Virus record (IMG/VR): IMGVR_UViG_3300034106_004022 | Location: 1-64,000 of that record | Length of the DNA stretch: 64,000 nucleotides | Strand: one strand, 5' to 3' | Source: an uncultured virus (IMG/VR IMGVR_UViG_3300034106_004022) | Lineage: Duplodnaviria; Heunggongvirae; Uroviricota; Caudoviricetes | Shown: in pieces, positions 3,361-64,000 of the stretch | Position numbering within the stretch: the stretch's first letter is position 1 | How the letters are laid out: every line of letters starts with the position of its first letter | The notes under the pieces: generated by a model | Database searches by the model: none | Told to the model about the DNA's origin: nothing | The model's input: the letters and a program-made list of their open reading frames with translations, nothing else | Translations under genes and position numbers: made by a program

Positions 3361-3740
3361 TGGCTAGATTAAAACCAAATATAGATATAGGTAGTATAAC
3401 TACAAAGAGGGATAGAGAATCTTTTCAAAATTTTGTGTTGGAAGTAATCAAAGATACGTTTATCTATGAGGCAACTCCAACATCAATTTCTTTAAATGGT
3501 GAACTATTTACTTTAAATTTGGATGATTTTAGATTTGTTTATGAAGATTTAATCGTTGCAGATTCCAAGGATTATTTAGATGTATATTTATACGGAGTGA
3601 AGCAAACAAACGATAGATATTCGGTAACATTTGATGATACTTCTATAACTATAACCTTTACTGAAAGTATAACAAGAGTTCCGGCTGACGTAGTTAGAAC
3701 TGATTTTGAAATTAAAGGTAAAATTACACAAATAGTATAA
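3360..3740 (+). CDS. Hypothetical virion protein
   Basis: 126 aa, TAATG-coupled at both ends; LDVYLYG...ITITF...FEIKGKI domain. Confidence 0.6.
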   Translation: MARLKPNIDIGSITTKRDRESFQNFVLEVIKDTFIYEATPTSISLNGELFTLNLDDFRFVYEDLIVADSKDYLDVYLYGVKQTNDRYSVTFDDTSITITFTESITRVPADVVRTDFEIKGKITQIV

Positions 3741-36000: not shown

Positions 36001-38794
36001 TATGAACCCCAATAGTAACACTTACTTATATGGTACATTTCAAGTAAATGGTGGACATGGGGATTCTCAAATTGGAGTTAGATTATTGTCTGGAAACAAT
36101 GGTGCTGGTGCAGGTGAAATTAATTTAAGAATGTGGGTATCTGAACCTGGTGTAACGTGGAACTGGGGTGGATTTGGATATAACGTAACTAATAATAATG
36201 GTTCACCAAACGGATTTGGTAGAATAAATACCGCACACGGACAGGCATATATGAGATTTAGTGATGGTGGTGATTTGTATTTCTATAATACAAATACATC
36301 TGGTACTAGAGTTACTAATATGGAAATGTATCCAAATAATACCGTATTATTTAACAACTACGCTACGGGTGGTAACTCATTAAGAGCACCAATATTTTAT
36401 GATTCGGATAATACGGGATACTATGGTGATTTTGCATCAACATCTCGTATAAACGCTATTAATTATGATAATTTATATTGGGCGGGAGATACGAGTTATG
36501 GTTTCATTGGTAGAAACGTATATGCTGATACTGTAAATGGTAGAGGTAGTGACCCGTTAGAATTAAACTATTATGATGGTGGTGATGTTTACATTGGACC
36601 TGGTGGTGGTAATAAAAATTTAAGAGCTAATCTTTACTATGATTATGCAAATACTGCATATTATTTAGACCCTAATGGAACTGCTAGATTATCATATGTA
36701 GTAGCAAATGGTGGTATCCGAATTGATGGAAATGAAAACCTTTACTTAGATAACAACTATGGACAATCAATTGTAGGTGTTTATACATCTGTTAGATATC
36801 AGGGTATATTTGCAATGGGTAATGCATATAAATTAGCAATTGATGGTACTGGTACTGGTAACTTATATGGATTATCTTGGTCACATCCTAATGCTGGAGG
36901 ACAAGCTGGATTCTTAAATGACCACGGTTTATTGGTAATGAACTATGGTACAACTTTTGCGGCAATATCATCACGTGGTTGGTTCAGAACTTCAGTTCAG
37001 GCACCTATATTCTATGATAATGATGATACTGGATACTATGGTAATTATGCAGGTGATAGAAGCACCAGCGTTAATGGATTTACCGCAAGAACAGTAGAAG
37101 GAACCAAAGGAACATGGAAATACAATATCCCAAGATTTATTCATACGGGCGACTCTAATTATTGGGTTGGAAGTATGGGTTGGGGTACAACTGACTTCAA
37201 CACTATGATGACATGGGGTAGTGGATTCATTGATTCTTGGTCAAACCCATCAAATCAACCATCTGGTACTTCACATTGGGTAGGTACTCAAGCATATCAC
37301 TACACCAATGCATACAATAGTGCATATGGTTGGCAGTTGGTAGGTGGTCCAATTGGAAATTTACGATTCCGTCAATCTTGGCCAAATGCTGGTACTTGGA
37401 GAACTGTACCTATGCTTGATGTGAATGATGGAAATAGTGGAGCAATGTATGCTGGAATTTATTATGATTCGGCTGATAGTGCATATTATGCAGACCCAGC
37501 ATCAACATCTCGTTTAAATATAACTAAGACTGCATTAAAAGCTCATAATGATATGAGTGGTTATGGAGAAGGAAACTGGGTTTCAGATTTCAATCGAACT
37601 CCAATAAGTTCATTTACGTTTGGTGAAGATAAATATAATGGTGGTCCATCTGGAACTTGGTGGTTCCAGGTAAATATGAGACATGCAAACTCAAGTAACT
37701 ATTGGGGAACTCAATTGGCATATGGATGGGAAGATAATGCAAATGAAATTTATCAAAGAAATATTACCGGAGGAAGTTTCAGCGGATGGGTTAGATATCT
37801 AAATTCAAACAACTATTCTGGTTATTCAAATTTCGGAACAGGTACAGTTTATGGTGGTATATATTACGATGGTAATAACTCTGGATACTATGGTGATTTT
37901 GCATCAACATCTCGTTTCAATACAACCATAACTGATACAACATACTTCGGTTCAGATACTAATAAAGGTAGAGCACAGGGATATGGTACTTGGTCAAATT
38001 CATTCCATAAAACGGCATACATGTCATTTGACTGGAACGCGAATTATGACACTTATTCAAATCATGGTATCGCATCTACTGATTTAAATGGTTCGTTTAG
38101 TGATTCGATGAGTATTAACTCATTTAATGATATCAACTTAAGATTAGATTCAAATGATAATAATGCAAACTCATATGTAAGAATACATGATAATACTACT
38201 GGCCAGTCAGTTTCCGTAGCATATATCGGACGAGAGAGTGGTAACCCTATTGCATATTTCAATAATAGAGTATATGGTAACGTATATTACCACAACAGTG
38301 ATACTGCATATTATTTGGCTCCGAATGGTACTTCCAGATTGAATAGAACAAACTATGATTATGTTTATTCTTATAACTGGGTTTACGCACAGGGTGATGT
38401 TATTGCATACTACTCTGATGAAAGATTAAAAACTAAAGTTGGTTCTATTGAAAACGCTTTAGATAAAATCTCTAAATTGAATGGATTCTATTATGTTGAA
38501 AATGATTTAGCAAAATCATTCGGATACAAAAACGAAAAAAGACAATTAGGTTTATCAGCACAAGAAGTACAAGAAGTTTTACCTGAAATTGTGACATTAG
38601 CACCATTTGATACGGAAACTGATAAAAATAATAATATTGTAGGTTCCAAATCTGGAGAAGATTACTTAACTGTAAACTACGCTAAAGTAGTTCCTCTTTT
38701 AGTTGAAGGTATTAAAGAACAAACCGAAATAATCAATTCTCAGCAAAAACAAATTGATGAATTAAAAGAAATGATTAAATCTTTGATAAAATAA
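27011..38794 (+). CDS. Giant modular tail fibre with a C-terminal peptidase S74-type intramolecular chaperone
   Basis: 3927 aa with a GTS stalk, about 18 RAPIFYDSDNT.YY-type linkers, and a C-terminal YSDERLK...ALDKI..LNG...GLSAQEVQEVLPEIV...VNYAKVVPLLVEGIKE segment plus coiled coil. Confidence 0.85.
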   Translation: MKYAGKNPNGINQVSQSLLSVDVNGVQQLTVSTASLDINTKLSVTNGVLASSYTGSAFSGSKFVGSQFSGSFSGSFSGDGSNLTKIPFEGLTADAQSKIQSGDGTARISNNKLSINVNTDITGSLLTTGTVSASFLAGDGSNITNISAASIGDINRLKSGSATATISPNKGLEVNVGIVTEKYLGVSGSAQIAGNLNVDGTTTLKSLNVAGTITATELKTTYISSSIIFSSGSNKFGDQSSDTHEFTGSLRVKDTIQIPSYTSNPVSGKVGEIYYNTSDTNIYRWTGLIWEPAAGTAGTSGTSGTSGTSGTSGTSGTSGTSGSSGSSGASGSSGSSGSSGSSGTSGTSGTSGSGGTSGSGGSSGTSGSSGTRGTSGSSGTSGTSGTSGSSGSSGSSGTSGTSGTSGTSGSSGSSGFGSSGTSGSGGTSGTSGTRGTSGSSGTSGSSGTSGSSGISGSSGTSATSGSGGTSATSGSSGSSGSSGTSGSSGSSGTSGTSGTRGTSGTSGTSGTSGISGSSGSSGSSGTSGTSGISGSSGSSGSSGSSGTSGTSGTRGTSGTSGIDGVVGDGGTSGSSGSSGSSGTSGSSGSSGTSGTSGSSGTNSTAGTGGTSGSSGSSGSSGTSGTSGTSGSSGTSGSSGSSGTSGSSGSSGTSGTSGTSGINGLIGSSGTGGTAGTGGTSGSSGSSGTSGTSGTSGTSGTSGTSGTRGTAGSGGSSGSSGSSGTSGTSGTSGSSGSSGTSGTSGSSGTSGTSGSSGTSGTRGTAGSGGSSGTSGSSGTSGSSGTSGSSGSSGTSGTSGTSGTSGTSGSSGTSGSSGVLALTGTTDNGVITLNGTAPNATVESNLRFDGTTLAVTGNATISGDLTVSGTTTYINTTTLNVGDNIITLNADIGAATAPTENAGIEVKRGNAATKQFYWNESTDRWYADSDLQSAGNLYGTQIDTGQGLTEVHLMNQNVRTSDTITFARLNLTTTGNDYYFAANGLTMTSISTGETIWRNLSSLRFTDNNDWDYNSWAGLKFINASKRIVLGVGGNVFTANSAQTGNLLLDRIDTMYLFDTTYYLNTGTSNLNSLTLAGNLVAAQVNTGQGLTEVHLMNQNVRTTDSVTFANITGNTIYVGGGTTYFINNDISRLNYINANAFAQEQGSVLKITYPNGGTLNNSTSSVTGAIKIRLPQSWTNTMMELKVRIYNYSGDTYWEYSMGGYNYSPSTSWINTNASVAGAAGAPAYTVRFAHDGTYCTIFIGELATTWSYPKIVVTEFIGGHSNFAVSQWDGDWALSFETTSFGTVTSTKTPTLRTGNFIADGTISGTSIDTGQGSTEVHLMNQNIRTTDDVTFSTIRGTNFRASNAYYLGENNFYLNLTNGGWYSNVRIASEVDMRAPIFYDTDNTAYYTNPAGLSVLSHIQLVNNWANTTPNDGAINIRGQYPSMTFRNTISNNMWLRHMDGSGDIQHYFASGVDSTSWSIRHSMFTNGRFFSAESMRTPIFYDSDNTAYYLDAASTSNINEIVSVRGQFRKAQTNNNYTTAALWTESYSTTTTGIAFHISGVVGKYLEMRTDGILYWENEKVWTGSTDGAGSGLDADLLDGQQGTYYDHRIYTSTGNIAGSFLGGHYSSGGTEKPNSATFGAGKLKVAMLSNGNLGFGGSWNDVLWMSTYNGGDVKQSYAIVGDKYGDNLWFSRQAFDSATWGTGRRLWHSGDTTISTTGDMRSPIFYDSDDTTYRIDGNSTSVLNNLNIAGTLTVNGTINLGNDFQIGDYKYFGINNLGASATQARRFEVARIGIDFNDWNSVGLFEVELSENYYDKGLRKRYIVSYGYVSAASVQLVEANGIGSNHFQVTIGSEVVVSGDHRYIPVYVDVRYYSSVDALIRTTRSITTNTNSAIGAVYINTSPSATNISDFTADSIVYPTSGQFGIAAPTFYDSDNTSYYIDPSNGANGISANLQGRIQVGTFNNSQTNTGEAWIGRASDRAAGVLTVQLGGGAGRYLEVVDNAWTTVEFSVNDSGVATAAASFRAPIFYDSNNTSYYLDPTSTTSLRTVGSWRSDSSTWDGEFSGKIQYHSNNWYFQAAGDWIWRNSGGSNVIYGNQSGELTATGNMRSPIFYDSDNTGYYTNPAGTSRMNGIAFDAASPVYSVTAGTSYQQHFQIREAGASGANGSAIAYAPSIGFHWSGVVASNITMEASGRISIRNNPGTSYENLVANNMYAYAFYDENNTGYYLDPASTSVLNAIRLGTSANNSTLSGAGDWGVRFTTDVGYIQIGPANSSYAHIYTDRGNFYMNVNDLYLNGNLVPAFGYNRGSGNLFAAIYYDANNTNYYIDGASTSNLNDLQTAGRVVIGGNFSNNAYNSVGSARLHFGGGNSDANDNYYIGTNIEGYGGSYTKLDLRWHTGIRMGAQPGYGGIRFYDTEDLGTLIFSIGTGDAHVRVTNNLYVNGYTYLGNGNADETHINDTLRVGATDSGDSHFYFGEDSSSWYGDHWYWDSGYNVYRYSRFAGTDSLIHYHDTRDTTRITYARNIVFDDFGKGIVGNYSAERLQLVFAMGDSYKPNTAGTSTANMYGIGWSHPNAGGLGGANNLNDHGLLIINNGTFRAAISSRIVASEEVRGTLFRDYNDSGYYLDPNTTGISLRIGGTVHSGGAFSSDGYSSSSPNVVTRITAPQGAAFSSDGSTGAIRIKLPFRGNNPMWTMKVRIYNYSTNQTSEYLLGNYAYDQGGYNSSATFIGGASATAHTVRFGNQDGVDCVWIGETNTGWSYPVVSVIDFTSGFRSSNADSQSRNWNIAVVTSFGTVQTAITPEIRLSNTYAPTFRADTDMRAPIYYDTNTAYYINGDGASNLNTLQTYSYQGNGNVGGTGNASWHPSGIYSAGYNWLYGGINMNGGTLDGAGPIYGTIYYDRNDSGYYADPASTSNFYNLNLTGAKHTYLTINPGNGWEAMVRYIGGSGSSWYVGKRTSTQLLGSTDAFHMYSETAGRTVGGYDTAGNHYAYGSSRATIFYDIDDTTYYMNPNSNTYLYGTFQVNGGHGDSQIGVRLLSGNNGAGAGEINLRMWVSEPGVTWNWGGFGYNVTNNNGSPNGFGRINTAHGQAYMRFSDGGDLYFYNTNTSGTRVTNMEMYPNNTVLFNNYATGGNSLRAPIFYDSDNTGYYGDFASTSRINAINYDNLYWAGDTSYGFIGRNVYADTVNGRGSDPLELNYYDGGDVYIGPGGGNKNLRANLYYDYANTAYYLDPNGTARLSYVVANGGIRIDGNENLYLDNNYGQSIVGVYTSVRYQGIFAMGNAYKLAIDGTGTGNLYGLSWSHPNAGGQAGFLNDHGLLVMNYGTTFAAISSRGWFRTSVQAPIFYDNDDTGYYGNYAGDRSTSVNGFTARTVEGTKGTWKYNIPRFIHTGDSNYWVGSMGWGTTDFNTMMTWGSGFIDSWSNPSNQPSGTSHWVGTQAYHYTNAYNSAYGWQLVGGPIGNLRFRQSWPNAGTWRTVPMLDVNDGNSGAMYAGIYYDSADSAYYADPASTSRLNITKTALKAHNDMSGYGEGNWVSDFNRTPISSFTFGEDKYNGGPSGTWWFQVNMRHANSSNYWGTQLAYGWEDNANEIYQRNITGGSFSGWVRYLNSNNYSGYSNFGTGTVYGGIYYDGNNSGYYGDFASTSRFNTTITDTTYFGSDTNKGRAQGYGTWSNSFHKTAYMSFDWNANYDTYSNHGIASTDLNGSFSDSMSINSFNDINLRLDSNDNNANSYVRIHDNTTGQSVSVAYIGRESGNPIAYFNNRVYGNVYYHNSDTAYYLAPNGTSRLNRTNYDYVYSYNWVYAQGDVIAYYSDERLKTKVGSIENALDKISKLNGFYYVENDLAKSFGYKNEKRQLGLSAQEVQEVLPEIVTLAPFDTETDKNNNIVGSKSGEDYLTVNYAKVVPLLVEGIKEQTEIINSQQKQIDELKEMIKSLIK
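27893..29458 (+). repeat. Second Gly-X-Y (GTS/GSS) low-complexity coding repeat
   Basis: About 520 codons of near-continuous G-(T/S)-S triplets. Confidence 0.9.
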
Positions 38795-51822: not shown

Positions 51823-53088
51823 ATGGTTATAGTAGAGTCACAAACTGAAGTAACGGAGTTTTTAAATTTATGGAATACTAAGACATCCATAATCATTCCA
51901 ATATGGTCTGATTTGGAAAAGCATCCTATACATAACAAATTATCATTTCTATATGTTAGATTTGATGATAAGGACTTTATTGTACCATTTAACCATATTG
52001 ATTGTAAGACTCCTACGATTGATTTGACTACTTCTAAGGAAGCAAAATGGGTAATCAACAAAAAGGGATTACTTCAATGTAATTTGGGTTTACAAAACCT
52101 AAATGATTTACAATCTGATGCATTTTTTCAACACAATAAATTATATCCGATAGGTTTTGAGGACCAACCATTTATAACTCACTATACCCGAAGAGGTATA
52201 CGAGATAATTTGGGCAAGATAGCACCTATTATGAAATGGGGTGAGTATCTTAGAGTGATATCTTCTACTTTTACTATTGGTATAGAGAATGATTGGGTTG
52301 GAGATTCGATGATTCCCCTTCTTTCAGATATAGAACATTTTGGTGTTCGGGTCGATAGGGAAAAATTTCTTGATAGATGGCCTCAAGCTTCTAAACATTT
52401 ACACAACGATATCGTTTACACCCAATACAACCCATACACCATTACATCCCGTCCATCCAACCGATTTGGTGGAATCAACTTCTCTGCCCTAAACAAATCC
52501 GATGGTACGAGAGAGGTGTTTATCCCAAAACCAAACCACATATTCCTACAAATGGATTATGATGCGTATCATCCACGTATTATTGGTAAGTTGATTGGTT
52601 ACGAATTACCCAAAACATCCGTACACCAATGGTTAGCTGACCAATATGGTTGTGAGTATGGTGAGGGTAAAGGAATTACGTTCCAATTACTATATGGTGG
52701 TATACCTGAGGAGTTTGAGCAAATACCTTATTATAAGGGTGTTAAGGAGTTCATTGAGAAGTTGTGGGATAAGAGTACCAAAGCTGGATATCTTCAAACA
52801 CAACATAGGAGAATCCCCTTAGATTGGATTGAAGGAAACAATCCGCAAAAATTGTTCAACTACCTACTTCAAGCGACCGAAACCGAATTAAATATGGAAA
52901 GGGTAGCTAAAATATTGGAATTTATCAAAGATACCGATATAGAACTTTCCCTATACACATACGATTCATTCTTATTTTCATATCCTGCTAATTCCGATGT
53001 ATCTCAAGCTAAAAAGTTAAAAGAGATAGCTGAAGGTGGTGGATTCCCCATTAATGCTAGCTGGGGAACTGATTACTCGAAACTTTAA
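51823..53088 (+). CDS. Short family A DNA polymerase-like protein
   Basis: 421 aa with T.TSRPS...INF, motif A (MDYDAYHPRI), motif B (K..TF..LYG) and motif C (YTYDSFL). Confidence 0.85.
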   Translation: MVIVESQTEVTEFLNLWNTKTSIIIPIWSDLEKHPIHNKLSFLYVRFDDKDFIVPFNHIDCKTPTIDLTTSKEAKWVINKKGLLQCNLGLQNLNDLQSDAFFQHNKLYPIGFEDQPFITHYTRRGIRDNLGKIAPIMKWGEYLRVISSTFTIGIENDWVGDSMIPLLSDIEHFGVRVDREKFLDRWPQASKHLHNDIVYTQYNPYTITSRPSNRFGGINFSALNKSDGTREVFIPKPNHIFLQMDYDAYHPRIIGKLIGYELPKTSVHQWLADQYGCEYGEGKGITFQLLYGGIPEEFEQIPYYKGVKEFIEKLWDKSTKAGYLQTQHRRIPLDWIEGNNPQKLFNYLLQATETELNMERVAKILEFIKDTDIELSLYTYDSFLFSYPANSDVSQAKKLKEIAEGGGFPINASWGTDYSKL

Positions 53089-55626: not shown

Positions 55627-56022
55627 ATGTTTATACCAAATCATTTACATTTACTTGTAAAGGGAAGCATTAAAACTCCACCTCAAACGGAAAAAATACT
55701 AAACGTTTGGTTTAGTGAATTAGTTAATAAAGTAGGAATGAAAGTAGTTGCCGGTCCTACATCGGTTTATGTTAACGAACCGGGCAACGAAGGAATAACG
55801 GGAACAGTAACATTAGCAACATCGCATGCTAGTATTCACGTTTGGGATAATGATAATCCACCAATGTTCCAATTTGATTTATATAGTTGTTCAGATTTTA
55901 CTGCAACTCAAGTATTAAATCATATAGATGAATGGTTTGGGTTGATAGAAGCTCACTACCAAATGATAGATAGAAATGGAAATGACTTTAAAATTATAGA
56001 TTCCGGTCATTTTAAAAAATAA
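55627..56022 (+). CDS. speD: Pyruvoyl-dependent S-adenosylmethionine decarboxylase-like proenzyme
   Basis: 131 aa with HLLV, G.TG...LATSHASIHVW and FDLYSC, matching the class 1b AdoMetDC pattern; the self-cleavage site reads T-SH instead of E-SH. Confidence 0.8.
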   Translation: MFIPNHLHLLVKGSIKTPPQTEKILNVWFSELVNKVGMKVVAGPTSVYVNEPGNEGITGTVTLATSHASIHVWDNDNPPMFQFDLYSCSDFTATQVLNHIDEWFGLIEAHYQMIDRNGNDFKIIDSGHFKK

Positions 56023-56044: not shown

Positions 56045-56866
56045 ATGTTAGTTAAAAAAGGTGATAATAACGAAAATGTAAAAAAATTACAAGCAAAATT
56101 AGGTTTAACCGCTGATGGAGTTTTTGGTGCTGGTACTGAATCAGCTGTAAAAGCTTGGCAAACAAAAAATGGATTAACTGCTGATGGTATCGTTGGTGAT
56201 GCTACTTGGGAAAAGATGGGATTGGGTGCAAGTACTCCAACTCCTTCTGTTGCTGTACCAGCATCTTCATTTAAATTGGCAGCTCTTAAAGGACACGTTC
56301 CTGATTCTGTAATTGCTCAAATTCCAGACACTGCTTCTAAATTCAATATTACAACTCCTCTAAGATTAGCTCATTTCTTAGCACAATGTGGACACGAAAG
56401 TGGTGGATTCAAAGCCGTTACTGAGAATGTTAACTATTCAGCAGATGGATTAGTAAAAATCTTCGGAAAATACTTTAATTCAACAACTGCAGCTGCATAT
56501 GCTAGAAACCCTGAAAAGATTGCATCTAAAGTTTACGCATCAAGAATGGGTAATGGTGATGAAGCATCTAAAGACGGATTTAAATTTCGTGGACGTGGTT
56601 ATATTCAATTAACTGGTAAATCTAACTATACTAACTTCGCTAAATTCATTGGTGAAGATACTGTTGCAAATCCTGATTTGGTAGCAACTAAATATCCATT
56701 AGCTTCTGCTGCATTTTTCTTTGATTCAAATAAACTTTGGTCTATTTGTGATAAAGGTTTTGATGATGCTACTGTAACATCGGTAACTAAAAGAGTAAAT
56801 GGTGGTACTATTGGATTAGCTGATAGAATCAAACACTTCAAAGAATACTATAACTTATTAAAGTAA
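56045..56866 (+). CDS. Endolysin: peptidoglycan-binding domain plus GH19 catalytic domain
   Basis: 273 aa with LQ.KLGLTADGVFG..TE.AVKAWQ.KNGL.ADGIVG, then RLAHFLAQCGHESGGF, FRGRGYIQLTG..NY and TKRVNGG..GL.DR. Confidence 0.92.
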   Translation: MLVKKGDNNENVKKLQAKLGLTADGVFGAGTESAVKAWQTKNGLTADGIVGDATWEKMGLGASTPTPSVAVPASSFKLAALKGHVPDSVIAQIPDTASKFNITTPLRLAHFLAQCGHESGGFKAVTENVNYSADGLVKIFGKYFNSTTAAAYARNPEKIASKVYASRMGNGDEASKDGFKFRGRGYIQLTGKSNYTNFAKFIGEDTVANPDLVATKYPLASAAFFFDSNKLWSICDKGFDDATVTSVTKRVNGGTIGLADRIKHFKEYYNLLK

Positions 56867-56879
56867 TATGGGGGTTGGT

Positions 56880-57335
56880 TTATTTAACTAAACCATAATA
56901 TTCTATATTCTTAAGTGCGTTGTTAACCAACCAAGGTTCTACATTAGGTATTTTTGATAGGAATTCCAATTCATAATGATATGCTAATATTTCCTCATAA
57001 TTCGGAGGTAATTTTATGTTATGCTTTAAATAAAATAAATGTTTAGATTCATGCACTAATATAGCTGCTATGTTATTTATTGAATTAAACCTCATATCTT
57101 TTTGGGATATCATTATGGTAACTGAATCTTCTGTTGTTGAAAAATCACCATCCCAATAGGTGATATGTTTACATACATCATTAATTAATTCATATTTATT
57201 AGGGTCAACTTGTTTTATTAGTGATAATGAAGTAGCTACCTTTGCTTTCCAATTATCACCAACATCATCGATTTTAATTTGTGAGTAACAATCAAACACA
57301 AATAAAAAATTAATTAAAAGTAGAATCAGTTTCAT
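56880..57335 (-). CDS. Secreted HExxH zinc-metallopeptidase-like protein
   Basis: 151 aa with a signal peptide (MKLILLLINFLFVFDCYS-Q), ILVHESKH and a downstream EE..AY. It is the only credible minus-strand gene and has ATATTTATT on the minus strand at 57344-57352. Confidence 0.65.
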   Translation of the reverse strand: MKLILLLINFLFVFDCYSQIKIDDVGDNWKAKVATSLSLIKQVDPNKYELINDVCKHITYWDGDFSTTEDSVTIMISQKDMRFNSINNIAAILVHESKHLFYLKHNIKLPPNYEEILAYHYELEFLSKIPNVEPWLVNNALKNIEYYGLVK

Positions 57336-57384
57336 ATTTTATCAATAAATATTTAAAAAAGTTAGATAAAATTGTAATCGCTAC

Positions 57385-57393
57385 ATATTTATA
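57385..57393 (+). promoter_or_regulatory. Putative late promoter (ATATTTATA) heading the secreted-protein cluster
   Basis: Recurring motif, ending 20 nt before the ATG at 57414. Confidence 0.55.
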
Positions 57394-57413
57394 GGAAACA
57401 TTATATAAAACGG

Positions 57414-59318
57414 ATGAAAAAACTATTATTTTTACTGCTGGTATCATTAGTACCAATCTTTGGGTATTCACAAACTTGCCCAACGCCAACAACTTCTGGT
57501 GTTTTTATAACACTTGATTCAAATTATTTAGCTGGTACGGTAGCTGAAGGTTATACTAATGTAGGACTATGTTTTTACAACAATACAACAACTGATATAA
57601 CAGCATTTCAGTTTAGAGTTTATTATGATACACAAGCTTTCACTGGGGTAGACACACTTACTACATTGAATACAACATTTTCTCAGAACCTAAAATATGT
57701 TGATAATCCGGCTGCTGGTTATGTAACTGTCACAATGACTTATACTGGTAGTTCATCTACTTTTGAAATTCCAAATGGACCAATTGTTCAGTTGAAATTA
57801 ACTCACGTAGCTGGATTTGCATCATTATCAACTATTGCTGATATGTCATTTGGAGCGGTAACTTATCCAGCAATTGCATCAAAGCAAAATGGTATGGATA
57901 ACGCACTTACATTACAAAACTTTGGTGGTAATATTATACCTCAAACAATGTCTTATCATGGTAAATTTAAGAACGTAACTGGAACAGCTGCTAAGAATTT
58001 AACTGTAGCTTTAGAAAAGAAACTTAGACCAAGTGGAGCTTGGACTCAGGTTACAACTGATATGACTGATATAAATGGTGACTTTGCATTTAATGCAATT
58101 GCAATTGATACAACTGGTTATGATGTTAGATTAAAAATACAGGGAGATACGTTATCAGTTGGTAATGTAATATCTACGGCAGATGCACAAAGAGTACAAG
58201 ATTATGTATTAGGTACACAAGCACCAACTGGATTTGATTTTTACGCATCGGATGTTAATGGTGATAATGGTTTAAGTATATCGGATGCATATGGTATATT
58301 TGGTAGAATTTCTGGTAGATTCACCGCATGGCCTAATAGTGTTCAAAATGTAAAATTCTTTACACAATCTGAATATACTACTATTAATGGCTCAACAACC
58401 AATTATACATCAACAATTCCTGGTGTAACTAACTTTACGTTTAATATTGTTGCTGGACAACCTGATTCGGTTACATTCTATGTATTAGTACCGGGTGATG
58501 CAAATGGAACGGGATATCGTATGGCACGTATTACTCCAATTGAGGTTTTAGTAGGACCACAACCTGGCGTTCCATCTCAAATTTACAATGTAATTGATGC
58601 TAGGGTAGAATATGATTTTCCAACAACTTCAATTGAAGTAAATGTTCCAACATTATCAGTTCAGGAAGGTAATTTAGTTAATATACCTGTAAAGGTATTA
58701 ACAAATGGTACTGAGGTTGGTTCATTACAATTTGGATTAAAATACAACGATACTCTATTGGAATTTAAAGGAATTGAATCGAAATCAGCTACTTCAAGTT
58801 GGTTAACATATTTGAATACTAATAATAATGAAATTTCTTGGGGTGGATATGATATTAGTGGTACACATATAAAACCATTAAGAGATGGTGATGATGTTGT
58901 AACTTTAAAATTTATTGCAAAAAGACCTCAAGACCAATGGAGTACAAGTCCTCTTTGGACTACTAACAAATACGCTGGTAACAATCAATGTGTTGATTTA
59001 AGTATCACACCTACAAATGGTATTATACAGGTATTTAGAATGGCAAATGTTACTATTGATGAAATAGAGGGTATGCAAATATTCCCTAACCCAACTGATG
59101 ATTATGTTAACGTAAAATTTGAAGTTAAAGAATTTGGACCGGTTAGGTTATCAGTATATGGTCTTAATGGTATTGAATATAGGGTAGTAGTAAATGATAA
59201 TATGCCTGAAGGTAATTACCAATACCAAGTTAGTTTAGGTAACTTAATTCCAGGTGTTTATGTTGCAGTTCTTAGAAAAACTACCAATAACCTATCGAAA
59301 AAAATTATATTAAGATAA
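57414..59318 (+). CDS. Secreted protein with cohesin-like, Ig-like, dockerin-like and second cohesin-like domains and a T9SS type A C-terminal sorting domain
   Basis: 634 aa. Signal peptide ending GYS-Q; ITAFQFRVYYD and VNIPVKV...VGSLQFGLKYNDTLLEF (cohesin-like); ISTADA...DVNGDNGLSISD (dockerin-like); IFPNPTDD...LIPGVY...KKII (T9SS CTD). Confidence 0.8.
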   Translation: MKKLLFLLLVSLVPIFGYSQTCPTPTTSGVFITLDSNYLAGTVAEGYTNVGLCFYNNTTTDITAFQFRVYYDTQAFTGVDTLTTLNTTFSQNLKYVDNPAAGYVTVTMTYTGSSSTFEIPNGPIVQLKLTHVAGFASLSTIADMSFGAVTYPAIASKQNGMDNALTLQNFGGNIIPQTMSYHGKFKNVTGTAAKNLTVALEKKLRPSGAWTQVTTDMTDINGDFAFNAIAIDTTGYDVRLKIQGDTLSVGNVISTADAQRVQDYVLGTQAPTGFDFYASDVNGDNGLSISDAYGIFGRISGRFTAWPNSVQNVKFFTQSEYTTINGSTTNYTSTIPGVTNFTFNIVAGQPDSVTFYVLVPGDANGTGYRMARITPIEVLVGPQPGVPSQIYNVIDARVEYDFPTTSIEVNVPTLSVQEGNLVNIPVKVLTNGTEVGSLQFGLKYNDTLLEFKGIESKSATSSWLTYLNTNNNEISWGGYDISGTHIKPLRDGDDVVTLKFIAKRPQDQWSTSPLWTTNKYAGNNQCVDLSITPTNGIIQVFRMANVTIDEIEGMQIFPNPTDDYVNVKFEVKEFGPVRLSVYGLNGIEYRVVVNDNMPEGNYQYQVSLGNLIPGVYVAVLRKTTNNLSKKIILR

Positions 59319-59321
59319 TAA

Positions 59322-59347
59322 TATGAGGTTACAAATGTGACCTCATA
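59322..59347 (+). other. Intergenic stem-loop without a clear U tract
   Basis: TATGAGGTTAC-aaat-GTGACCTCATA forms an 11-bp stem with one G-U pair. Confidence 0.6.
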
Positions 59348-59392
59348 ATTGTTATAATCAACTCAAAACAAATTAAACAAAAAAACAATACT

Positions 59393-59716
59393 ATGTCAGA
59401 AGAAACAAACGCACCCGAATCAGAAGGAACTTGGTCAGGTTTAAAGAAAACAATTATTGGAACTCTATCAACTGCTGTATTAGCAGGTGGAACTTGGGTT
59501 ACAACAACTCTATTTAATGGTGGAGATGATAAAGAAGAAACTAAAACAGAACAAGCTGCTCCAGCTGCACCTGTAATTATCAATCTACAAAATAATAACA
59601 CTAATCAACAAAAACAATCGGGTGGTACAAATACAATTATTAAAGAAAAAACAATTGTAGAAAAACCTGCACCAGCTGCAGCACCTGCTAAACCAAAAGA
59701 AGAGGATTCTTGGTAA
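59393..59716 (+). CDS. Small membrane-anchored protein
   Basis: 107 aa with one hydrophobic segment (IIGTLSTAVLAGGTWVTTTLF) followed by a Pro/Ala/Asn/Gln-rich tail. Confidence 0.6.
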   Translation: MSEETNAPESEGTWSGLKKTIIGTLSTAVLAGGTWVTTTLFNGGDDKEETKTEQAAPAAPVIINLQNNNTNQQKQSGGTNTIIKEKTIVEKPAPAAAPAKPKEEDSW

Positions 59717-59717
59717 T

Positions 59718-60437
59718 ATGAAAAAATTAATATTAATAATTTCTTCAATTTTATTATTTTCTATTGTTAGTAATGCACAAACAATTGGAACTATTAAAAC
59801 CGAAGAATATAAAGCTGATTTTGAAAAAAAACAATCTATTGCAGTTGTAGGTGACTATGATGGTGATATCGTTTTACCAATTCAAGTTTTAAAAATTGGT
59901 ATTAACGAAGAACTTTACGAAATGTATCCTGAGTTAAAGGATAAGAGAGTTGGGCTTGGTGTTGCTAATATTGTTTTAGAATTCTTAGAGTCAACAGATA
60001 GATTTAAGTTTACTGAGGACCGTGAGGAGATTAAACAAAAAATGATTGCACAGGATAAGGCATCTGATAAGGGTATATCAAGTAATAAGATAGAAGTGAA
60101 GGGTAATGTTATTTTAGCAAAATACTTCGTTTATATTGAGGTATATGACTTTTCAGTATCCGAAGATGAACAAATCAAAATGACTGATGGTTCAAAAACA
60201 ACTCAAACAACTCGTTTGGGTTTACAGGTTAGATTCGTTGATGCTGAAACTGGTGAAATTATTACCGGTAGTGGTTTGGGTGAAGCAAGTACAGTTAAAA
60301 CTGCATCATTATTAGATGGTGTTGATGACATTAAATTTAACCAATCAACTATTGGTATATCAACTAAGAAAGCTCTTGAAACTGGAGCATCTAGAGTTGT
60401 TTCAAAAATGATTAAAAAGGGAATATTTAAAAGTTAA
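59718..60437 (+). CDS. Secreted CsgG/HfaB-like protein
   Basis: 239 aa. Signal peptide ending SNA-Q; LGVANIVLEFLESTDRFKFTE, AKYFVYIEVYDF and LQVRFVDAETGEII match the CsgG-family pattern. Confidence 0.7.
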   Translation: MKKLILIISSILLFSIVSNAQTIGTIKTEEYKADFEKKQSIAVVGDYDGDIVLPIQVLKIGINEELYEMYPELKDKRVGLGVANIVLEFLESTDRFKFTEDREEIKQKMIAQDKASDKGISSNKIEVKGNVILAKYFVYIEVYDFSVSEDEQIKMTDGSKTTQTTRLGLQVRFVDAETGEIITGSGLGEASTVKTASLLDGVDDIKFNQSTIGISTKKALETGASRVVSKMIKKGIFKS

Positions 60438-60442
60438 ATATA

Positions 60443-60805
60443 ATGGGCAAAATAAGTGAATTTTTCGGTGGTAAATCTGATTATGTTAAAGTAGATGATA
60501 AAAATCGTTTCTATTTTATGTTGCAACAAATGCAAAATAATCGTTGGAGAATTACCGCAATTATATTAGGGTTATTTACCTTAATTATTGTTGGAATCAA
60601 CTCTGGTGTATTTTTTGGTGTAGAAATTGGACAAGACTGGAAAGAAATGTTATTAATTTTATTAGGTGCCTTTGTTGGTAACTTAAATAAAGTTATAGAT
60701 TATTGGTTCAACTCTGAAGATAGAGACAAAATGTTAATCCAAAAGGTAGATGAAGAGGATGGCGTATCTTTATCTAATACATTGGATTCGCAAGATGAAA
60801 ATTAA
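60443..60805 (+). CDS. Two-transmembrane membrane protein
   Basis: 120 aa with two hydrophobic helices followed by VIDYWFNS. Confidence 0.6.
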   Translation: MGKISEFFGGKSDYVKVDDKNRFYFMLQQMQNNRWRITAIILGLFTLIIVGINSGVFFGVEIGQDWKEMLLILLGAFVGNLNKVIDYWFNSEDRDKMLIQKVDEEDGVSLSNTLDSQDEN

Positions 60806-62012
60806 AAAACTTTTAATAACAATAAGTTTTTTGTTCTCTACTATGGTGGTGTTAGGACAAGGGTTCTCATATACATTTACAGACCCATGTACCTTAAAAT
60901 CCAAAGATATTTTTATTAATAGCCCAAATGGTAGCGTATCATTAATATATTCTGGGCAAATTCAAAGTTTTACTCAAACACAATTACAATCCGGTGCATT
61001 AGAAAGTTGGATTAATCAAGTTAATGCGAGTAATCCGCAAGGTTCCGGCCCTTGTGGTGGTGTTGGTATAGCACAAAGTACCAATTTAAATGTAACGGTT
61101 GCAGCTAATAATATAGCAGTGTTAACAAGCGTTATGTCAACCATGTCATCACTTTCATCTATAAGTGGAGCAGCTGGTTCAGCAATACAAGGTACAGTTC
61201 AGAGTAATGAAAAAGTCGCATCTAACGGCAATAAATCAGATGATAAAAATGGTACATCTGGTAGTTCATCGCAATCAACTAAATCAAAAGGAGAATCGGA
61301 AGAAAAAACAGGTGAAGAAAAAGCTGAAGAGGCTGTATCATCTTCATCATCTAATTCATCTCAGGTTAAAGCTAAAGTAGCAGCTGTTAAACGTGGTAAT
61401 ATTATGATGACTGGTGATATTGTTACTATATCAAGTGCTTCTGGTAATGAACCACAACAACTTAAAATTAATATGAGTTTTATCACATCAAATACTGAGA
61501 ATACATTTGCTAAAGGGGCTTTGGTAAATTATACTACTGCAATTGATAATTCTTGTATAACACTATTTGCAGCTTGGAGACGTAAAAACTTAACATCAAT
61601 AGTTGCAAATTCATCTATGTTGAATTTTGAAAAGGATTATTTTAATACAACATCGATAATGGAATCGTATAAAATAAAAAAAATAACAGCAACGTTGGGA
61701 GTAAATTATACTACTGGTAATATTGGTGAATCCAAATTCCAAAGTTTATCAACTTTAGGCGGAGTTGTTGGTAATTTCGATGTAGGAAAAAAAATGAGTA
61801 CTACATTGATGTTTGTTACAGTATATTCACCATTTGTATATTATTATGAAGGCATGTGGTATCAATCGGGACTATTAGCAGTTCCATTTGTTGCAATTGA
61901 TTACAAGCTAACTCAGAAATTTAAAATGAACATCAGTTTTAGTGGTGTTCAACAATTTAAGAGTGATGCTATAAACTACCAAGTATTACTTGGTGCTAAA
62001 GCACTTTTATAA
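60795..62012 (+). CDS. Secreted protein with a probable C-terminal outer-membrane beta-barrel
   Basis: The ATG at 60795 gives the signal peptide MKIKKLLITISFLFSTMVVLG-Q. A Ser/Lys/Glu-rich linker follows, and the last roughly 190 aa show alternating amphipathic strands ending YQVLLGAKALL. Confidence 0.6.
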   Translation: MKIKKLLITISFLFSTMVVLGQGFSYTFTDPCTLKSKDIFINSPNGSVSLIYSGQIQSFTQTQLQSGALESWINQVNASNPQGSGPCGGVGIAQSTNLNVTVAANNIAVLTSVMSTMSSLSSISGAAGSAIQGTVQSNEKVASNGNKSDDKNGTSGSSSQSTKSKGESEEKTGEEKAEEAVSSSSSNSSQVKAKVAAVKRGNIMMTGDIVTISSASGNEPQQLKINMSFITSNTENTFAKGALVNYTTAIDNSCITLFAAWRRKNLTSIVANSSMLNFEKDYFNTTSIMESYKIKKITATLGVNYTTGNIGESKFQSLSTLGGVVGNFDVGKKMSTTLMFVTVYSPFVYYYEGMWYQSGLLAVPFVAIDYKLTQKFKMNISFSGVQQFKSDAINYQVLLGAKALL

Positions 62013-62013
62013 A

Positions 62014-62463
62014 ATGAAAAAATTATTATTACTATCTTTGATGTTAATCACATCATTAACTTATGGACAAAAATGCTACACTGTTAAAAATGTAGAGAGT
62101 CTTGCTAAAATTGAAAATATAAATCCTAAAAGATTTACATTAGGTGTTAAACAAATAACTGAAGAAATTCTATCTGAAAAATATAGTATATGTGAAGATG
62201 GTGAATCAGTAATGGTTGTTGTTAAGAGTATTGAGGCACCTACAACAAGTATTTCAATTGGACCATTTGAAAAGAAAAGAAAAGTTACTATTGTGACTGT
62301 TGATTTAATTATTAATGGTAAAGTATATACTGGAATTGGTGAAAGTAAGACTGATGTAAAATCTACATTTATTGAATTGCAAGATGAAAATATTCCATTT
62401 GAAAAATCAGCGTTTTCAGCTGCATTAAAAAAATCATTAATAAGTGCTATTAACCAAATGTAA
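62014..62463 (+). CDS. Secreted short paralog of the CsgG-like protein
   Basis: The ATG at 62014 gives the signal peptide MKKLLLLSLMLITSLTYG-Q. KRFTLGVKQITEEILSE and TGIGES...F..SA...ALKKSL align with 59718..60437. Confidence 0.6.
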   Translation: MKKLLLLSLMLITSLTYGQKCYTVKNVESLAKIENINPKRFTLGVKQITEEILSEKYSICEDGESVMVVVKSIEAPTTSISIGPFEKKRKVTIVTVDLIINGKVYTGIGESKTDVKSTFIELQDENIPFEKSAFSAALKKSLISAINQM

Positions 62464-62464
62464 T

Positions 62465-64000
62465 ATGAGAAGATATCTCACCCTGTTATTATTAATAATA
62501 TCCAATATTGTATTTGCTCAAACATTTACATATTCGGGTTATATGTATAATGCGGGTGGATTACCAGCTCAAAATGTTGCTGTAAAATTATATAAACGTA
62601 CTACACCAACTCTTACTGGGTTTACATCACAAACCAATTATAACGGACACTCTTACTATCGTTCTACTGGTTCAATGACTTGGACTAATGCAAAGGTTGC
62701 TTGTGAAAATATGGGAGGTCACTTAGCTACCGTATCTAATTCAGCTGAGAACAATTTCTTATTTAATACATGGCCATCTGGTTGGATTGGATATTATCAA
62801 GATAGAGTTTCTGGATATACTTATTCGGAAGCAGCTGGTGGATTTCGTTGGACAGAAACTAAAGTAACTGATGGATTGGTTGCTGATTATGATGTTTCTT
62901 CTTATACATCAGGAACCACACTAACTGATATTGTATCTGGTATTAATTCTACATTATACAATACACCATCATACTCAAGTACTGGTGGGAAATATTTAAC
63001 ATTCAATGGAACTAATCAATACGCAATAACAAATAATTTAGCATCCAAATTTTCGAATAATAAAATAACTATAATGGCTTGGATATATCCAACCGGAAAT
63101 GGAGTTATATCATCGGAATTAGGTGTTGGTAGTCCTACATCAGGTTGGCATGAATCAATAATGGAAATCACTGGAAGTAATACCCTTAGAGTTGGATTTT
63201 GGAATGGTAGTGGAATTACTCAATTAAGTACATCTATTACATTAAACGCTTGGCATTTGGTTTCTATTACTTATGATGGGGCATCAATGAAAGGATATTT
63301 AAATAATGTAAATTTTGGAAGTACTAATTTTACTAGAGATGTTCCGTATGTGTATTCGGGAAACGGACAATATTTCGCATTTGGATTAAGTGATGTTACT
63401 AATATGGGTTCTGGAGCTTATGGTAATTTTAGATTAGGTGATTATCAAATATTCAATAGAGCTATAACAGCCGATGAAATTGATAGAACATATAACTTAT
63501 ATGCATATCGATATAAATTAAATCAATACACAAATTGGAATTCCGGAGAACCTAATAACTCACCCAGTGAAGATTATACACAATTTGTTACAGGTGGTAA
63601 ATGGAATGATTTAGGAAATACATCTTTACCTTATGTTATAGAATTTGATTATATTAACGATTTTACTCCATGGGTTTTACATCAAACAGTTTATACTAAC
63701 TCTTCTGGATATTATTCATTTTCTCAATCAACCAATCCAGCAACCGAATGGTATATTCAATATGATATTCCAACACCTACAACACAACTAAGTACCAGTG
63801 ATATTAATTCTATAATGTACAAAGTTATTAGTAATTCATTTAATGGATTAGATTATTATAAGTACGATGTAAATAATGATGGTGAAGTAACTGTATCTGA
63901 TGTTTATTATATTCATATGAAAAAAGTTGGGATGAAATCTATATGGGAAAATTCTTTACCAAATGTTAGATTATTTACCCAATCACAATATAATATAATA
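62465..64000 (+). CDS. Secreted lectin-like protein (Ig-like, C-type lectin, LamG and dockerin-like domains), truncated by the window end
   Basis: Not in the ORF track. Open for 512 codons: MRRYLTLLLLIISNIVFA-QTF...NGHSYY...TWTNAKVACENMGGHLATV...WIG...[LamG: TIMAWIYP, WHLVSITYDG, QIFNRAIT]...NWNSGEPNN...KWNDL...YVIEF...DVNNDGEVTVSD. Confidence 0.8.
   Translation, partial: MRRYLTLLLLIISNIVFAQTFTYSGYMYNAGGLPAQNVAVKLYKRTTPTLTGFTSQTNYNGHSYYRSTGSMTWTNAKVACENMGGHLATVSNSAENNFLFNTWPSGWIGYYQDRVSGYTYSEAAGGFRWTETKVTDGLVADYDVSSYTSGTTLTDIVSGINSTLYNTPSYSSTGGKYLTFNGTNQYAITNNLASKFSNNKITIMAWIYPTGNGVISSELGVGSPTSGWHESIMEITGSNTLRVGFWNGSGITQLSTSITLNAWHLVSITYDGASMKGYLNNVNFGSTNFTRDVPYVYSGNGQYFAFGLSDVTNMGSGAYGNFRLGDYQIFNRAITADEIDRTYNLYAYRYKLNQYTNWNSGEPNNSPSEDYTQFVTGGKWNDLGNTSLPYVIEFDYINDFTPWVLHQTVYTNSSGYYSFSQSTNPATEWYIQYDIPTPTTQLSTSDINSIMYKVISNSFNGLDYYKYDVNNDGEVTVSDVYYIHMKKVGMKSIWENSLPNVRLFTQSQYNII

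What the first reader, a model, noticed from the sequence alone, without database searches (positions are those of the whole stretch)
56880..64000. Phage-encoded cell-envelope display system: T9SS cargo with cohesin/dockerin-like modules, CsgG-like proteins, a beta-barrel and a lectin
Seen: eight adjacent genes after the endolysin all encode exported or membrane proteins (six with signal peptides, two membrane-anchored). One has cohesin-like, dockerin-like and T9SS CTD motifs, and a paralog carries lectin domains plus the same dockerin-like segment (DVNGDNGLSISD...WPNSVQNVKFFTQSEY versus DVNNDGEVTVSD...WENSLPNVRLFTQSQY). The cluster begins at the same ATATTTATA motif as the virion genes. Known: the T9SS is essentially a Bacteroidota system that exports CTD-bearing cargo, cohesin-dockerin pairs assemble multi-protein surface complexes, and CsgG forms the curli export pore. 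Inference: the phage uses host Sec and T9SS late in infection to build a modular glycan-binding surface complex. Possible roles are aggregating new host cells around the infected cell, masking receptors against superinfection, or deterring grazers. Virion proteins assemble in the cytoplasm and need no signal peptide, so this is not ordinary tail machinery. I do not know of a described phage system like it.
Basis: partly seen in the sequence, partly recalled or inferred. Interest (0 to 1): 0.9.

Follow-up and report, generated by a model that had tools for sequence, protein, structure and literature searches.

The report
Phage cohesin-lectin envelope display module
A large phage of Flavobacterium-like bacteria carries a conserved block of genes whose products all go into the infected cell's envelope and probably hang a swappable sugar-binding protein on a scaffold at the cell surface; what the phage gains from this has not been tested.

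Summary
The block is real, phage-borne and under purifying selection. B is a cohesin-X-dockerin-cohesin protein with a T9SS type A CTD. H is a dockerin-tagged lectin whose payload is swapped among relatives. A complex model docks H's dockerin on B's first cohesin (0.65 against a best control of 0.29; it may pass by likeness to solved pairs). B, C, D, F, G and H travel together in 19 of 19 dereplicated D loci and in cultured Flavobacterium phage immuto. D was not found in 400 sampled Bacteroidota genomes. D and G are CsgG-fold, but D has short, charged hairpins and no CsgF or curlin, so it is probably not a curli pore. Gene A is divergent and looks like a HExxH peptidase. A second subtype has no CTD on its scaffolds and carries small lipoproteins instead, so T9SS use is not universal. 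Best reading (0.5): late lectin display on the infected cell. No expression or function data. No paper found; this scan noted the module before (53 notes, at least 48 genomes).

The parts
56045..56866 (+). Flanking endolysin (PG-binding + GH19)
   Evidence: Pfam PF01471 and PF00182; phrog_181
56880..57335 (-). Gene A: exported 151-aa protein with invariant HESxH and downstream EE..Y..E; gluzincin-like zinc peptidase (inferred); accessory (10 of 19 loci); divergent from B
   Evidence: Alignment A5; weak SprT-like/MPTase hits in 2 of 22 members; co-occurrence
57344..57352 (-). Variant motif ATATTTATT, 8 nt before the start of A
   Evidence: Reverse-strand print
57385..57393 (+). ATATTTATA, candidate late promoter, 29 nt before B
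   Evidence: TATTTATA within 100 nt upstream of 16/43 full-length B genes, against 52/616 other ORFs and 0/71 D, 0/63 F, 0/62 G (not dereplicated)
57414..59318 (+). Gene B (634 aa): signal peptide, cohesin 1, X (Ig-like) module, dockerin-like, cohesin 2, T9SS type A CTD; split into BN and BC genes, each with its own signal peptide, in about 25 loci
57495..57944 (+). B cohesin 1 (aa 28-177); modelled docking site for H's dockerin
   Evidence: VIA Z 14.7, rmsd 2.8, 139 aligned to 3ul4_A; complex model
58149..58343 (+). B dockerin-like segment (aa 246-310): second Ca-loop intact, first degenerate
   Evidence: Profile A4 hits ScaB dockerin 4uyp_B at E 3e-4; Pfam below cut-off; low pLDDT
58632..59033 (+). 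B cohesin 2 (aa 407-540)
   Evidence: PF00963 E 6e-11; VIA Z 13.8 to 4dh2_C
59079..59312 (+). B T9SS type A CTD (aa 556-633)
   Evidence: PF18962 38.1 bits (cut-off 27); TIGR04183 26.6 bits (cut-off 23); profile matches C-terminal stretches of proteins in 225 of 301 Bacteroidota genomes
59393..59716 (+). Gene C (107 aa): N-terminal membrane anchor, Pro/Gln-rich extended region, invariant C-terminal Trp; core gene; envelope tether (inferred)
   Evidence: Last residue W in 38 of 38 representatives; 19 of 19 loci; sequences
59718..60437 (+). Gene D (239 aa): CsgG-fold envelope protein with short charged hairpins; core gene
   Evidence: AF2 pLDDT 61.6; Foldseek 4uv2 E 7e-9; VIA Z 12.4 to CsgG, then 9-10 to CT253, Cj1090c, FlgT, PelC, LptE; hairpins
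60443..60805 (+). Gene E (120 aa): two-helix membrane protein, holin-like by shape only; accessory (8 of 19 loci)
   Evidence: Sequence; no family above cut-off
60795..62012 (+). Gene F (405 aa): N-domain with two invariant Cys, long low-complexity linker, C-terminal outer-membrane beta-barrel of about 205 aa; core gene
   Evidence: Atlas model resembles autotransporter and DUF481 barrels (TM 0.55/0.72); alignment A2; alternating hydrophobic pattern; no Pfam family among 29 members
62014..62463 (+). Gene G (149 aa): short paralog of D, about LptE size; core gene
   Evidence: hhalign D vs G probability 96%, E 3e-9, signal peptides included; G profile hits D proteins at E about 1e-4
62465..64000 (+). 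Gene H (557 aa; ends at genome 64138): signal peptide, Ig-like module with an inserted C-type lectin (EPN 362, WND 380) that itself holds a LamG domain, then a dockerin-like tag; no CTD
63800..63934 (+). H dockerin-like helices (aa 446-490), modelled on B cohesin 1

Best explanation
Late in infection the phage sends six proteins through the host Sec translocon and builds an adhesin in the infected cell's outer envelope. B is an adaptor scaffoldin. Its first cohesin binds the dockerin tag of H, the exchangeable sugar-binding subunit. Its own dockerin and second cohesin hold the two halves together, or link B to B, as the natural BN/BC split requires. In this phage the CTD hands B to the host T9SS, probably with H bound. 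F (outer-membrane barrel), D and G (CsgG/PelC/LptE-fold barrel partners rather than a pore of their own) and C (inner-membrane tether) form a phage-made anchoring or assembly platform. The result is an infected cell coated with a lectin that sticks to glycans on neighbouring host cells, particles or matrix, so that progeny are released near new hosts; it may also mask receptors. Shown here: domains, folds, conservation, gene linkage and payload swapping. Modelled: B-H binding. Inferred: timing, T9SS export, piggy-backing of H, the role of C, D, F and G, and the benefit to the phage.
For: Core genes co-occur in 19/19 dereplicated D loci (H counted 18 by the script; the 19th, in L053, was mislabelled and is a GEVED-bearing H) across different flanking genes. 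pN/pS is 0.19-0.47 for all eight genes. Export signals follow the Bacteroidetes Q-rule (PMC5837995 abstract). Two cohesin folds, Z 14.7 and 13.8, and a CipA-like cohesin-X-dockerin match, Z 14.0. B-H complex scores 0.65 against a best control of 0.29; the mark was reached by 116/157 solved and 2/215 mismatched pairs; runs agree in at least 97% of contacts; partner pLDDT 76; the interface is cohesin 1, as the split form predicts. The H payload varies (Lectin_C, Lectin_C+LamG, PA14, GEVED, Ig_7, or none named) on a constant tag, as expected for an outside, variable target. EPN..WND is present in 31/31 CTL-bearing H. The subtype without CTDs has lipoproteins with acidic residues after the Cys, resembling the Bacteroidetes surface-export signal (PMC5080379), so both subtypes point outward.
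Against: H has no CTD, and co-export of a CTD-less partner by the T9SS is not something I can cite. The subtype's B-like and H-like proteins lack CTDs in all 11 loci. The dockerin is below the Pfam cut-off and poorly modelled. Cohesin-dockerin complexes are solved, so the complex pass may reflect likeness rather than binding. The motif also precedes non-late genes. A lysin lies within 2 kb in 11/19 loci, which fits a lysis role as well. For the analogous curli cluster of phage Melnitz, no clumping was seen (PMC9004378, section 9).
Confidence: 0.5

Rival explanations
1. Periplasmic trans-envelope assembly tied to lysis. C (inner membrane), D/G and F (outer membrane) act as a spanin-like or lysis-delaying bridge, and B/H stay in the periplasm.
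For: The block is flanked here by two lysin-type genes (GH19 at 56045; 64171, phrog_33083 E 4e-12). A lysin lies within 2 kb in 11/19 loci; E and another small membrane protein are often adjacent. A lysis role was proposed for phage CsgGF (PMC9004378). H has no CTD.
Against: 8/19 loci have no homolog of these two lysins nearby. In immuto the block sits between RNR/nuclease and thioredoxin genes. A swappable lectin payload and a kept CTD make little sense for a conserved periplasmic target. A weak Rz-like spanin hit exists elsewhere in the genome (E 9e-5).
Confidence: 0.17
2. C-D-G-F is a phage-made export or anchoring system (a CsgG-fold ring plus barrel, like PelBC or LptDE) that puts B/H on the surface without the host T9SS. 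The CTD, or the lipoprotein in the second subtype, is only a docking or anchoring module.
For: C, D and G are kept in all 11 CTD-less loci and F in 9 of them. D's fold neighbours PelC and LptE are barrel partners. The subtype lipoproteins weakly resemble CTDs (Pfam E 8e-4 and 4e-3 in 2/14; hhalign E 0.003, probability 9.5%).
Against: D's hairpins look too short and polar to span a membrane, and F's barrel of about 205 aa is too small for folded cohesins (inference). No D-F or D oligomer model was run. The lipoprotein-CTD likeness is weak.
Confidence: 0.15
3. The proteins fold in the periplasm and act after lysis, on virions or in outer-membrane vesicles, as an accessory adhesin that tethers particles to glycans.
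For: Shared upstream motif with virion genes. Payload variation resembles that of receptor-binding proteins.
Against: No PHROG structural hit for any of the eight genes. Membrane-embedded F and C do not fit a virion accessory. The block lies outside the tail gene cluster.
Confidence: 0.1
4. The CTD-bearing scaffold (or the CTD-like lipoprotein) occupies the host T9SS or its receptors, cutting secretion or gliding and excluding other phages. The lectin is secondary.
For: CTD kept on B in 19/19 loci; free CTD-like lipoproteins in the second subtype, weak match only.
Against: It does not explain why C, D, F, G and a variable lectin are always kept.
Confidence: 0.08

Closest known systems
Flavobacterium phage vB_FspM_immuto gp013-gp019 (NC_055915.1)
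   Same: Same block: H, BN, BC, C, D, F, G; D 78% identical; same upstream motif before gp013 and gp014. It is the only match in 50,697 GenBank phage records (4 records).
   Different: B is split in two, H has only the C-type lectin, A and E are absent from the block, and it sits among replication genes. It is annotated only as lectin, cohesin or hypothetical; I found no functional description.
Curli (T8SS) clusters of pelagiphages and Methylophilales phage Melnitz (PMC7029224, PMC9004378, PMC9599517)
   Same: Large aquatic phages encoding a multi-gene host-envelope module with a CsgG-fold protein; the 'sibling capture' idea was proposed there.
   Different: Those carry true CsgG (37-40% to E. 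coli CsgG), CsgF and curlin repeats. D does not match them by tblastn and has shorter polar hairpins. This block has no CsgF or curlin motif, but has cohesins, dockerins, a lectin, a barrel and a T9SS CTD.
Cohesin-dockerin assemblies (C. thermocellum CipA cohesin-X-dockerin, A. cellulolyticus ScaB/ScaC adaptors; non-cellulosomal cohesins)
   Same: Cohesin folds, X-dockerin dyad, adaptor layout and a modelled dockerin-on-cohesin interface.
   Different: Phage-encoded and in a diderm host; the cargo is a lectin, not a glycoside hydrolase; first Ca-loop degenerate; anchoring by CTD or lipoprotein rather than SLH or sortase.
T9SS type A cargo of Bacteroidota
   Same: B has a Sec signal with Gln+1 and a C-terminal Por_Secre_tail above cut-off.
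   Different: Virus-encoded. In the 301 genomes searched, the listed chromosomal matches cover only the C-terminal part (from profile position 442 or later; 4 candidates scored per genome). The partner H has no CTD.
CsgG-fold barrel partners: PelC in PelBC (9h80), LptE in LptDE, FlgT
   Same: D's fold neighbours at Z 9-10; D and G sit beside a barrel gene.
   Different: No sequence-level membership; most D copies and all G copies have SPI-type rather than lipoprotein signals; a D-F or G-F contact was not tested.

Membership tests
T9SS type A cargo (B) | N-terminal Sec signal peptide | tested here: met
   Heuristic (hydrophobic core + small residue-Gln) met in 24/24 full-length B and 12/14 BC; SignalP not available
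T9SS type A cargo (B) | C-terminal type A CTD above curated cut-off | tested here: met
   PF18962 38.1 > 27; TIGR04183 26.6 > 23, and 44 bits in two BC proteins
T9SS type A cargo (B) | CTD fold like solved CTDs | tested here: inconclusive
   Z 9.3 to mirolase CTD, 8.9 to RgpB, 8.8 to RemA CTD, tied with unrelated Ig folds
T9SS type A cargo (B) | Secretion depends on the host T9SS | not testable with these tools
   Needs T9SS-null host
T9SS type A cargo (H) | C-terminal CTD | tested here: not met
   No Por_Secre_tail in 42 H-type proteins at E<=1e-3; no TIGR04183 in this H
Cohesin-dockerin assembly | Cohesin domain | tested here: met
   PF00963 above cut-off for cohesin 2; Z 14.7 and 13.8 for both
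Cohesin-dockerin assembly | Dockerin with two Ca-loop-helix repeats | tested here: inconclusive
   Second loop motif in 23/24 B and 30/39 H; first loop degenerate; Pfam below cut-off; profile hit to 4uyp_B E 3e-4
Cohesin-dockerin assembly | Dockerin binds cohesin | tested here: inconclusive
   Model supports binding, 0.65 vs control 0.29, but may pass by likeness
Cellulosome | Dockerin-tagged polysaccharide-degrading enzymes | tested here: not met
   No glycoside hydrolase domain in 42 H-type proteins
Curli secretion system (CsgG/T8SS) | PF03783 above cut-off | tested here: not met
   No hit for D or G. Distant relatives found with D's profile do pass (11 of 30 tested), so D is in the wider superfamily
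Curli secretion system (CsgG/T8SS) | CsgG fold | tested here: met
   Foldseek E 7e-9; VIA Z 12.4, rmsd 3.6, 160 aligned; model pLDDT only 61.6; hhalign A6 vs E. coli CsgG 94.7%
Curli secretion system (CsgG/T8SS) | Two long amphipathic transmembrane hairpins | tested here: not met
   D segments 20/20 aa with 0/1 aromatics and about 6/5 charged, across 24 rows; E. coli CsgG 23/30 aa with 3/5 aromatics. Sequence-level judgement
Curli secretion system (CsgG/T8SS) | Lipoprotein anchor | tested here: not met
   No Cys in this D signal region; lipobox-like motif in 10 of 22 orthologs
Curli secretion system (CsgG/T8SS) | CsgF and curlin subunits in the operon | tested here: not met
   No such Pfam hit for the eight genes; recalled curlin motif found 0 times
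Curli secretion system (CsgG/T8SS) | Nonameric ring | not tested
   The one complex job went to B-H
C-type lectin (H) | Lectin_C domain with EPN and WND Ca/sugar motifs | tested here: met
   PF00059 above cut-off; EPN..WND in 31/31; the meaning of the motifs is recalled; sugar binding untested
PorV/SprF-type CTD-binding barrel or autotransporter (F) | Family profile match | tested here: inconclusive
   No Pfam family in 29 members; structure-level likeness to autotransporter/DUF481 barrels only
Gluzincin-type zinc peptidase (A) | HExxH plus downstream Glu | tested here: met
   H95 E96 H99, E114 E115, E122 invariant in 22 sequences; family hits weak; no solved relative; activity untested

The most novel reading that the evidence does not exclude
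Large Bacteroidota phages encode a widespread surface-display machine of their own. A trans-envelope platform (C tether, CsgG-fold D/G, barrel F) carries a cohesin-dockerin scaffold loaded with interchangeable lectins. It plugs into either of the host's two surface routes: the T9SS through a CTD, or lipoprotein export through small CTD-like lipoproteins. This makes the infected cell an adhesive particle that captures the next hosts before lysis.
Probability: 0.3. Interest if true: 0.9.

Novelty: categorically new. Interest (0 to 1): 0.75.

Why it matters
It would be a virus using the T9SS and a cellulosome-type cohesin-dockerin scaffold, neither of which I found described for phages. The module is common: D has 6,485 relatives at 90% clustering and at least 194 viral-contig hits. 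It would change how infected Flavobacteria stick to particles and to each other in lakes and coastal water. It also makes the open 'sibling capture' question, raised for pelagiphage curli clusters, directly testable, because a cultured phage-host pair (immuto on Flavobacterium sp. LMO8) carries the block and F. johnsoniae has T9SS genetics.

Tried and rejected
Mis-joined host DNA: rejected. Ten other viral contigs carry the identical full-length B with the same flanks, GC is flat at 0.30-0.32, and a cultured phage has the block. Host operon picked up recently: rejected. D's profile matched 1/401 Bacteroidota genomes (the seed MAG) and 3/301 Flavobacterium genomes: two on 2.6-3.7-kb contigs holding only module or lysin genes, and one weak hit at E 7e-4. 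The 254-kb MAG contig L096 has phage-like neighbours; the third genome-contig hit was a 41-residue fragment. Plasmids: no match with a distant D relative. Curli pore: rejected on hairpins and missing partners. Sequence searches of the PDB gave nothing for D, only S1-protein noise for G, and nothing for A or the subtype lipoproteins. The Atlas gave only viral hypothetical clusters for G. Expression: no RNA holder listed. The supplement of PMC9723584 lists a few cohesin or lectin genes that I could not tie to this block. 'Block inserted only in this phage': 21 of 23 SSB-selected loci with at least 4 kb upstream lack it at this site, but 2 of 2 complete ones carry D elsewhere; in a second set 2 of 12 records had D (1 of 2 near-complete; that one is identical to this phage). 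So the block is mobile and not universal. Membership in the bS21 phage clades of PMC9723584 was not established. The search was too loose to be informative. No tRNAs in genome positions 56000-131432. The D tree groups the module D proteins (support 0.95) but the CsgG root is too distant to order events.
Full report
Setting. The window is the first 64 kb of G000, a 131,432-bp linear virus record estimated 71% complete. PHROGs places it among T4-like myophages: sheath, tube, baseplate, T4-type SSB, UvsX, clamp and clamp loader, B-family polymerase, RNR and bS21 (115 of 118 called ORFs scanned). A Bacteroidota host is inferred from the export signals and from the closest cultured relative.

Observation. 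Eight ORFs, A to H, lie between a GH19 endolysin and a second lysin-like gene at 64171. H ends at 64138 without a CTD. A is on the minus strand. None of the eight has a PHROG hit. A heuristic for signal peptides ending in small residue+Gln is met by nearly all A, B, D, F, G and H representatives and by 44 of 779 other ORFs. This is the Bacteroidetes Q-rule (PMC5837995, abstract seen), which marks Sec export but not sorting. ATATTTATA is enriched and strand-biased. TATTTATA falls outside ORF bodies in 21 of 28 plus-strand cases in a 95%-coding genome, before neck, sheath, baseplate-hub and lysin genes but also before the SSB. In relatives it precedes B or H but never the internal genes D, F or G. 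It is a candidate late promoter and nothing more.

Conservation. D has 194 hits in viral contigs, of which 80 were kept, and 6,485 relatives in the 90% protein collection. I analysed 71 D loci (one for the ten identical copies). Of these, 45 had enough flank and collapsed to 19 at 95% identity. B with CTD, C, F and G were present in 19/19, H in 19/19 (one mislabelled by the script), A in 10, E in 8, and a lysin homolog within 2 kb in 11. Flanking genes differ between groups. In about 25 loci B is split into BN (cohesin-X-dockerin, 363 aa) and BC (own signal peptide, cohesin, CTD, 243 aa). pN/pS against one relative is 0.19-0.47 for all eight genes. [quoted passage not shown] D was not found in the Bacteroidota chromosomes sampled, apart from short contigs that hold only module or lysin genes. 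B's profile matches chromosomal proteins through its C-terminal part. Relatives picked by SSB lack the block at this site in 21 of 23 informative loci, yet both complete ones carry D elsewhere, and a 97%-complete relative lacks it. The block is mobile, common and not universal.

Anatomy. The B model (pLDDT 72) gives cohesin 1 (28-177, Z 14.7), a match to the CipA cohesin-X-dockerin stretch (29-301, Z 14.0, rmsd 9.4), cohesin 2 (Z 13.8) and an Ig-like CTD. The B profile hits the ScaB dockerin across both helices (E 3e-4). A GDxNGTG motif about 70 residues after the intact Ca-loop is kept in 21/24 B and ends 12/13 BN proteins, but is absent from 39/39 H. It may complete the degenerate first loop by circular permutation (inference). 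In H the lectin is inserted into an Ig-like module, and LamG is inserted into the lectin. Among 42 H-type proteins the payload is Lectin_C+LamG (12), Lectin_C without LamG (17, one with Ig_7), GEVED (5), PA14 (2), weak Ig_7 (1) or unnamed (5). All 31 CTL-bearing H keep EPN..WND. The complex model puts H's dockerin helices (447-490) on B's cohesin 1. It scores 0.65 against a best control of 0.29, with at least 97% contact agreement and partner pLDDT 76; the mark was reached by 116 of 157 solved and 2 of 215 mismatched pairs. Such complexes are solved, so this shows likeness and supports, but does not show, binding.

D, G, F, C, A. The D model is weak (pLDDT 61.6), but its best match is CsgG by two methods (E 7e-9; Z 12.4), followed by CT253, Cj1090c, FlgT, PelC and LptE at Z 9-10. 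D's profile reaches lipoproteins, 11 of 30 of which pass the PF03783 cut-off. Against E. coli CsgG its two hairpin segments are shorter (20 and 20 against 23 and 30 residues), charged and nearly free of aromatics in all 24 rows. There is no CsgF or curlin. I therefore read D and its short paralog G as periplasmic partners of a barrel, as PelC and LptE are, rather than as a pore; this is inference. F has a cysteine-bearing N-domain, a variable low-complexity linker and a C-terminal barrel resembling autotransporter and DUF481 barrels, with no named family. C has a membrane anchor and an invariant terminal Trp (38/38).

A second subtype. The two complete relatives carry a variant: G, a B-like gene, C, D, F and an H-like gene (lectin or PA14), where the B-like and H-like proteins end without a CTD. 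In 11 such loci (two with identical D) the CTD profile hit no large protein, and a 112-126-aa lipoprotein gene lies between G and C in all 11. These have acidic residues just after the Cys, like the Bacteroidetes lipoprotein export signal (PMC5080379, abstract and section 11 seen). Their likeness to CTDs is weak. The T9SS is thus one option, not the essence of the module. The constant part is cohesin/dockerin cargo plus C, D, F and G.

How it works. I put 0.5 on late display of a swappable lectin on the infected cell through a cohesin-dockerin scaffold, with B exported by the host T9SS in this phage and C, D, F and G as the anchoring platform. The likely gain is adhesion near new hosts, or receptor masking. 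The rivals are a periplasmic lysis-related bridge (0.17), a phage-made export route independent of the T9SS (0.15), a post-lysis virion or vesicle adhesin (0.10) and T9SS jamming (0.08). The weakest steps are how CTD-less H gets out, the timing, and the benefit. There are no expression data.

Literature. Searches for phage + type IX secretion + cohesin + Bacteroidetes (4 unrelated papers), phage genome/T9SS/sorting domain/Flavobacterium phage (3 papers, listings only), bacteriophage + cohesin domain + dockerin + C-type lectin (0 papers) and immuto (8 papers, listings) turned up no description of this block. The nearest published kind is the phage curli cluster: PMC7029224 (passages), PMC9004378 (passages and section 9, part 1) and PMC9599517 (passages). 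It uses true CsgG, CsgF and curlin, and E. coli CsgG finds those phages but not immuto. I also saw passages of PMC11285876 (CTDs are species-selective and fold-based), of PMC9723584 (plus a search and part 1 of its supplement) and of bioRxiv 10.1101/2023.04.13.536721. The immuto isolation paper, subscription journals and bioRxiv supplements were not visible and could bear on the novelty claim. This scan has noted the module before, in 53 notes on at least 48 genomes; these are leads, not support.

Verdict. Observation confirmed; interpretation partly supported. No described system has this composition, so I class it as categorically new, with phage curli clusters as the functional analog. Interest 0.75.

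Noticed in passing
L348:4697-13256 (G698) and L349:4229-11927 (G699); L350-L359: Second subtype of the module: cohesin proteins without CTD plus one or two small acidic-signal lipoproteins with weak CTD/DUF3244 likeness.
   Followed up: partly
L348:184-2901 (-): A full TonB-dependent receptor gene (CarboxypepD_reg, plug, barrel) in a 252-kb virus record, 1.8 kb from the module.
   Followed up: no
L349:3482-4219 (-): Class 3 lipase gene directly downstream of D in a subtype-II locus.
   Followed up: no
L096:13513-14334 and L096:4205-4948; L349:6800-7696; L101:1038-1457: Extra signal-peptide-bearing, barrel-like genes inside or near the module in some phages.
   Followed up: no
L058/L099 gp012; L030, L036, L078, L088, L092, L094, L095 (family f19): A signal-peptide-bearing DNA/RNA endonuclease G-like gene is often inserted in or beside the block.
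   Followed up: no
window 58494-58514 (B aa 361-367): GDxNGTG kept in B and at the very C-terminus of BN but absent from H; may complete a circularly permuted dockerin Ca-loop.
   Followed up: partly
window 51823-53088: A second, PolA-type polymerase-like gene (phrog_17) beside the tail region, although the genome also has a B-family polymerase at 79797-82313.
   Followed up: no
window 55627-56022: S-adenosylmethionine decarboxylase gene directly before the endolysin.
   Followed up: no
window 3740-12058, 12952-24936, 27011-38794: Three giant tail-fibre-like genes (2772, 3994, 3927 aa), two with collagen-like repeats.
   Followed up: no
G000:C1:87243-101951 (L002/L003): A run of about 15 glycosyltransferase and sugar-modification-type genes, and two Mom-like DNA modification genes at 74960-76921; bS21 at 107990.
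   Followed up: no
P0213, P0216, P0219, P0221, P0229: Distant D-family domains fused to caspase-like peptidases or Ser/Thr kinases in cellular-looking proteins.
   Followed up: no
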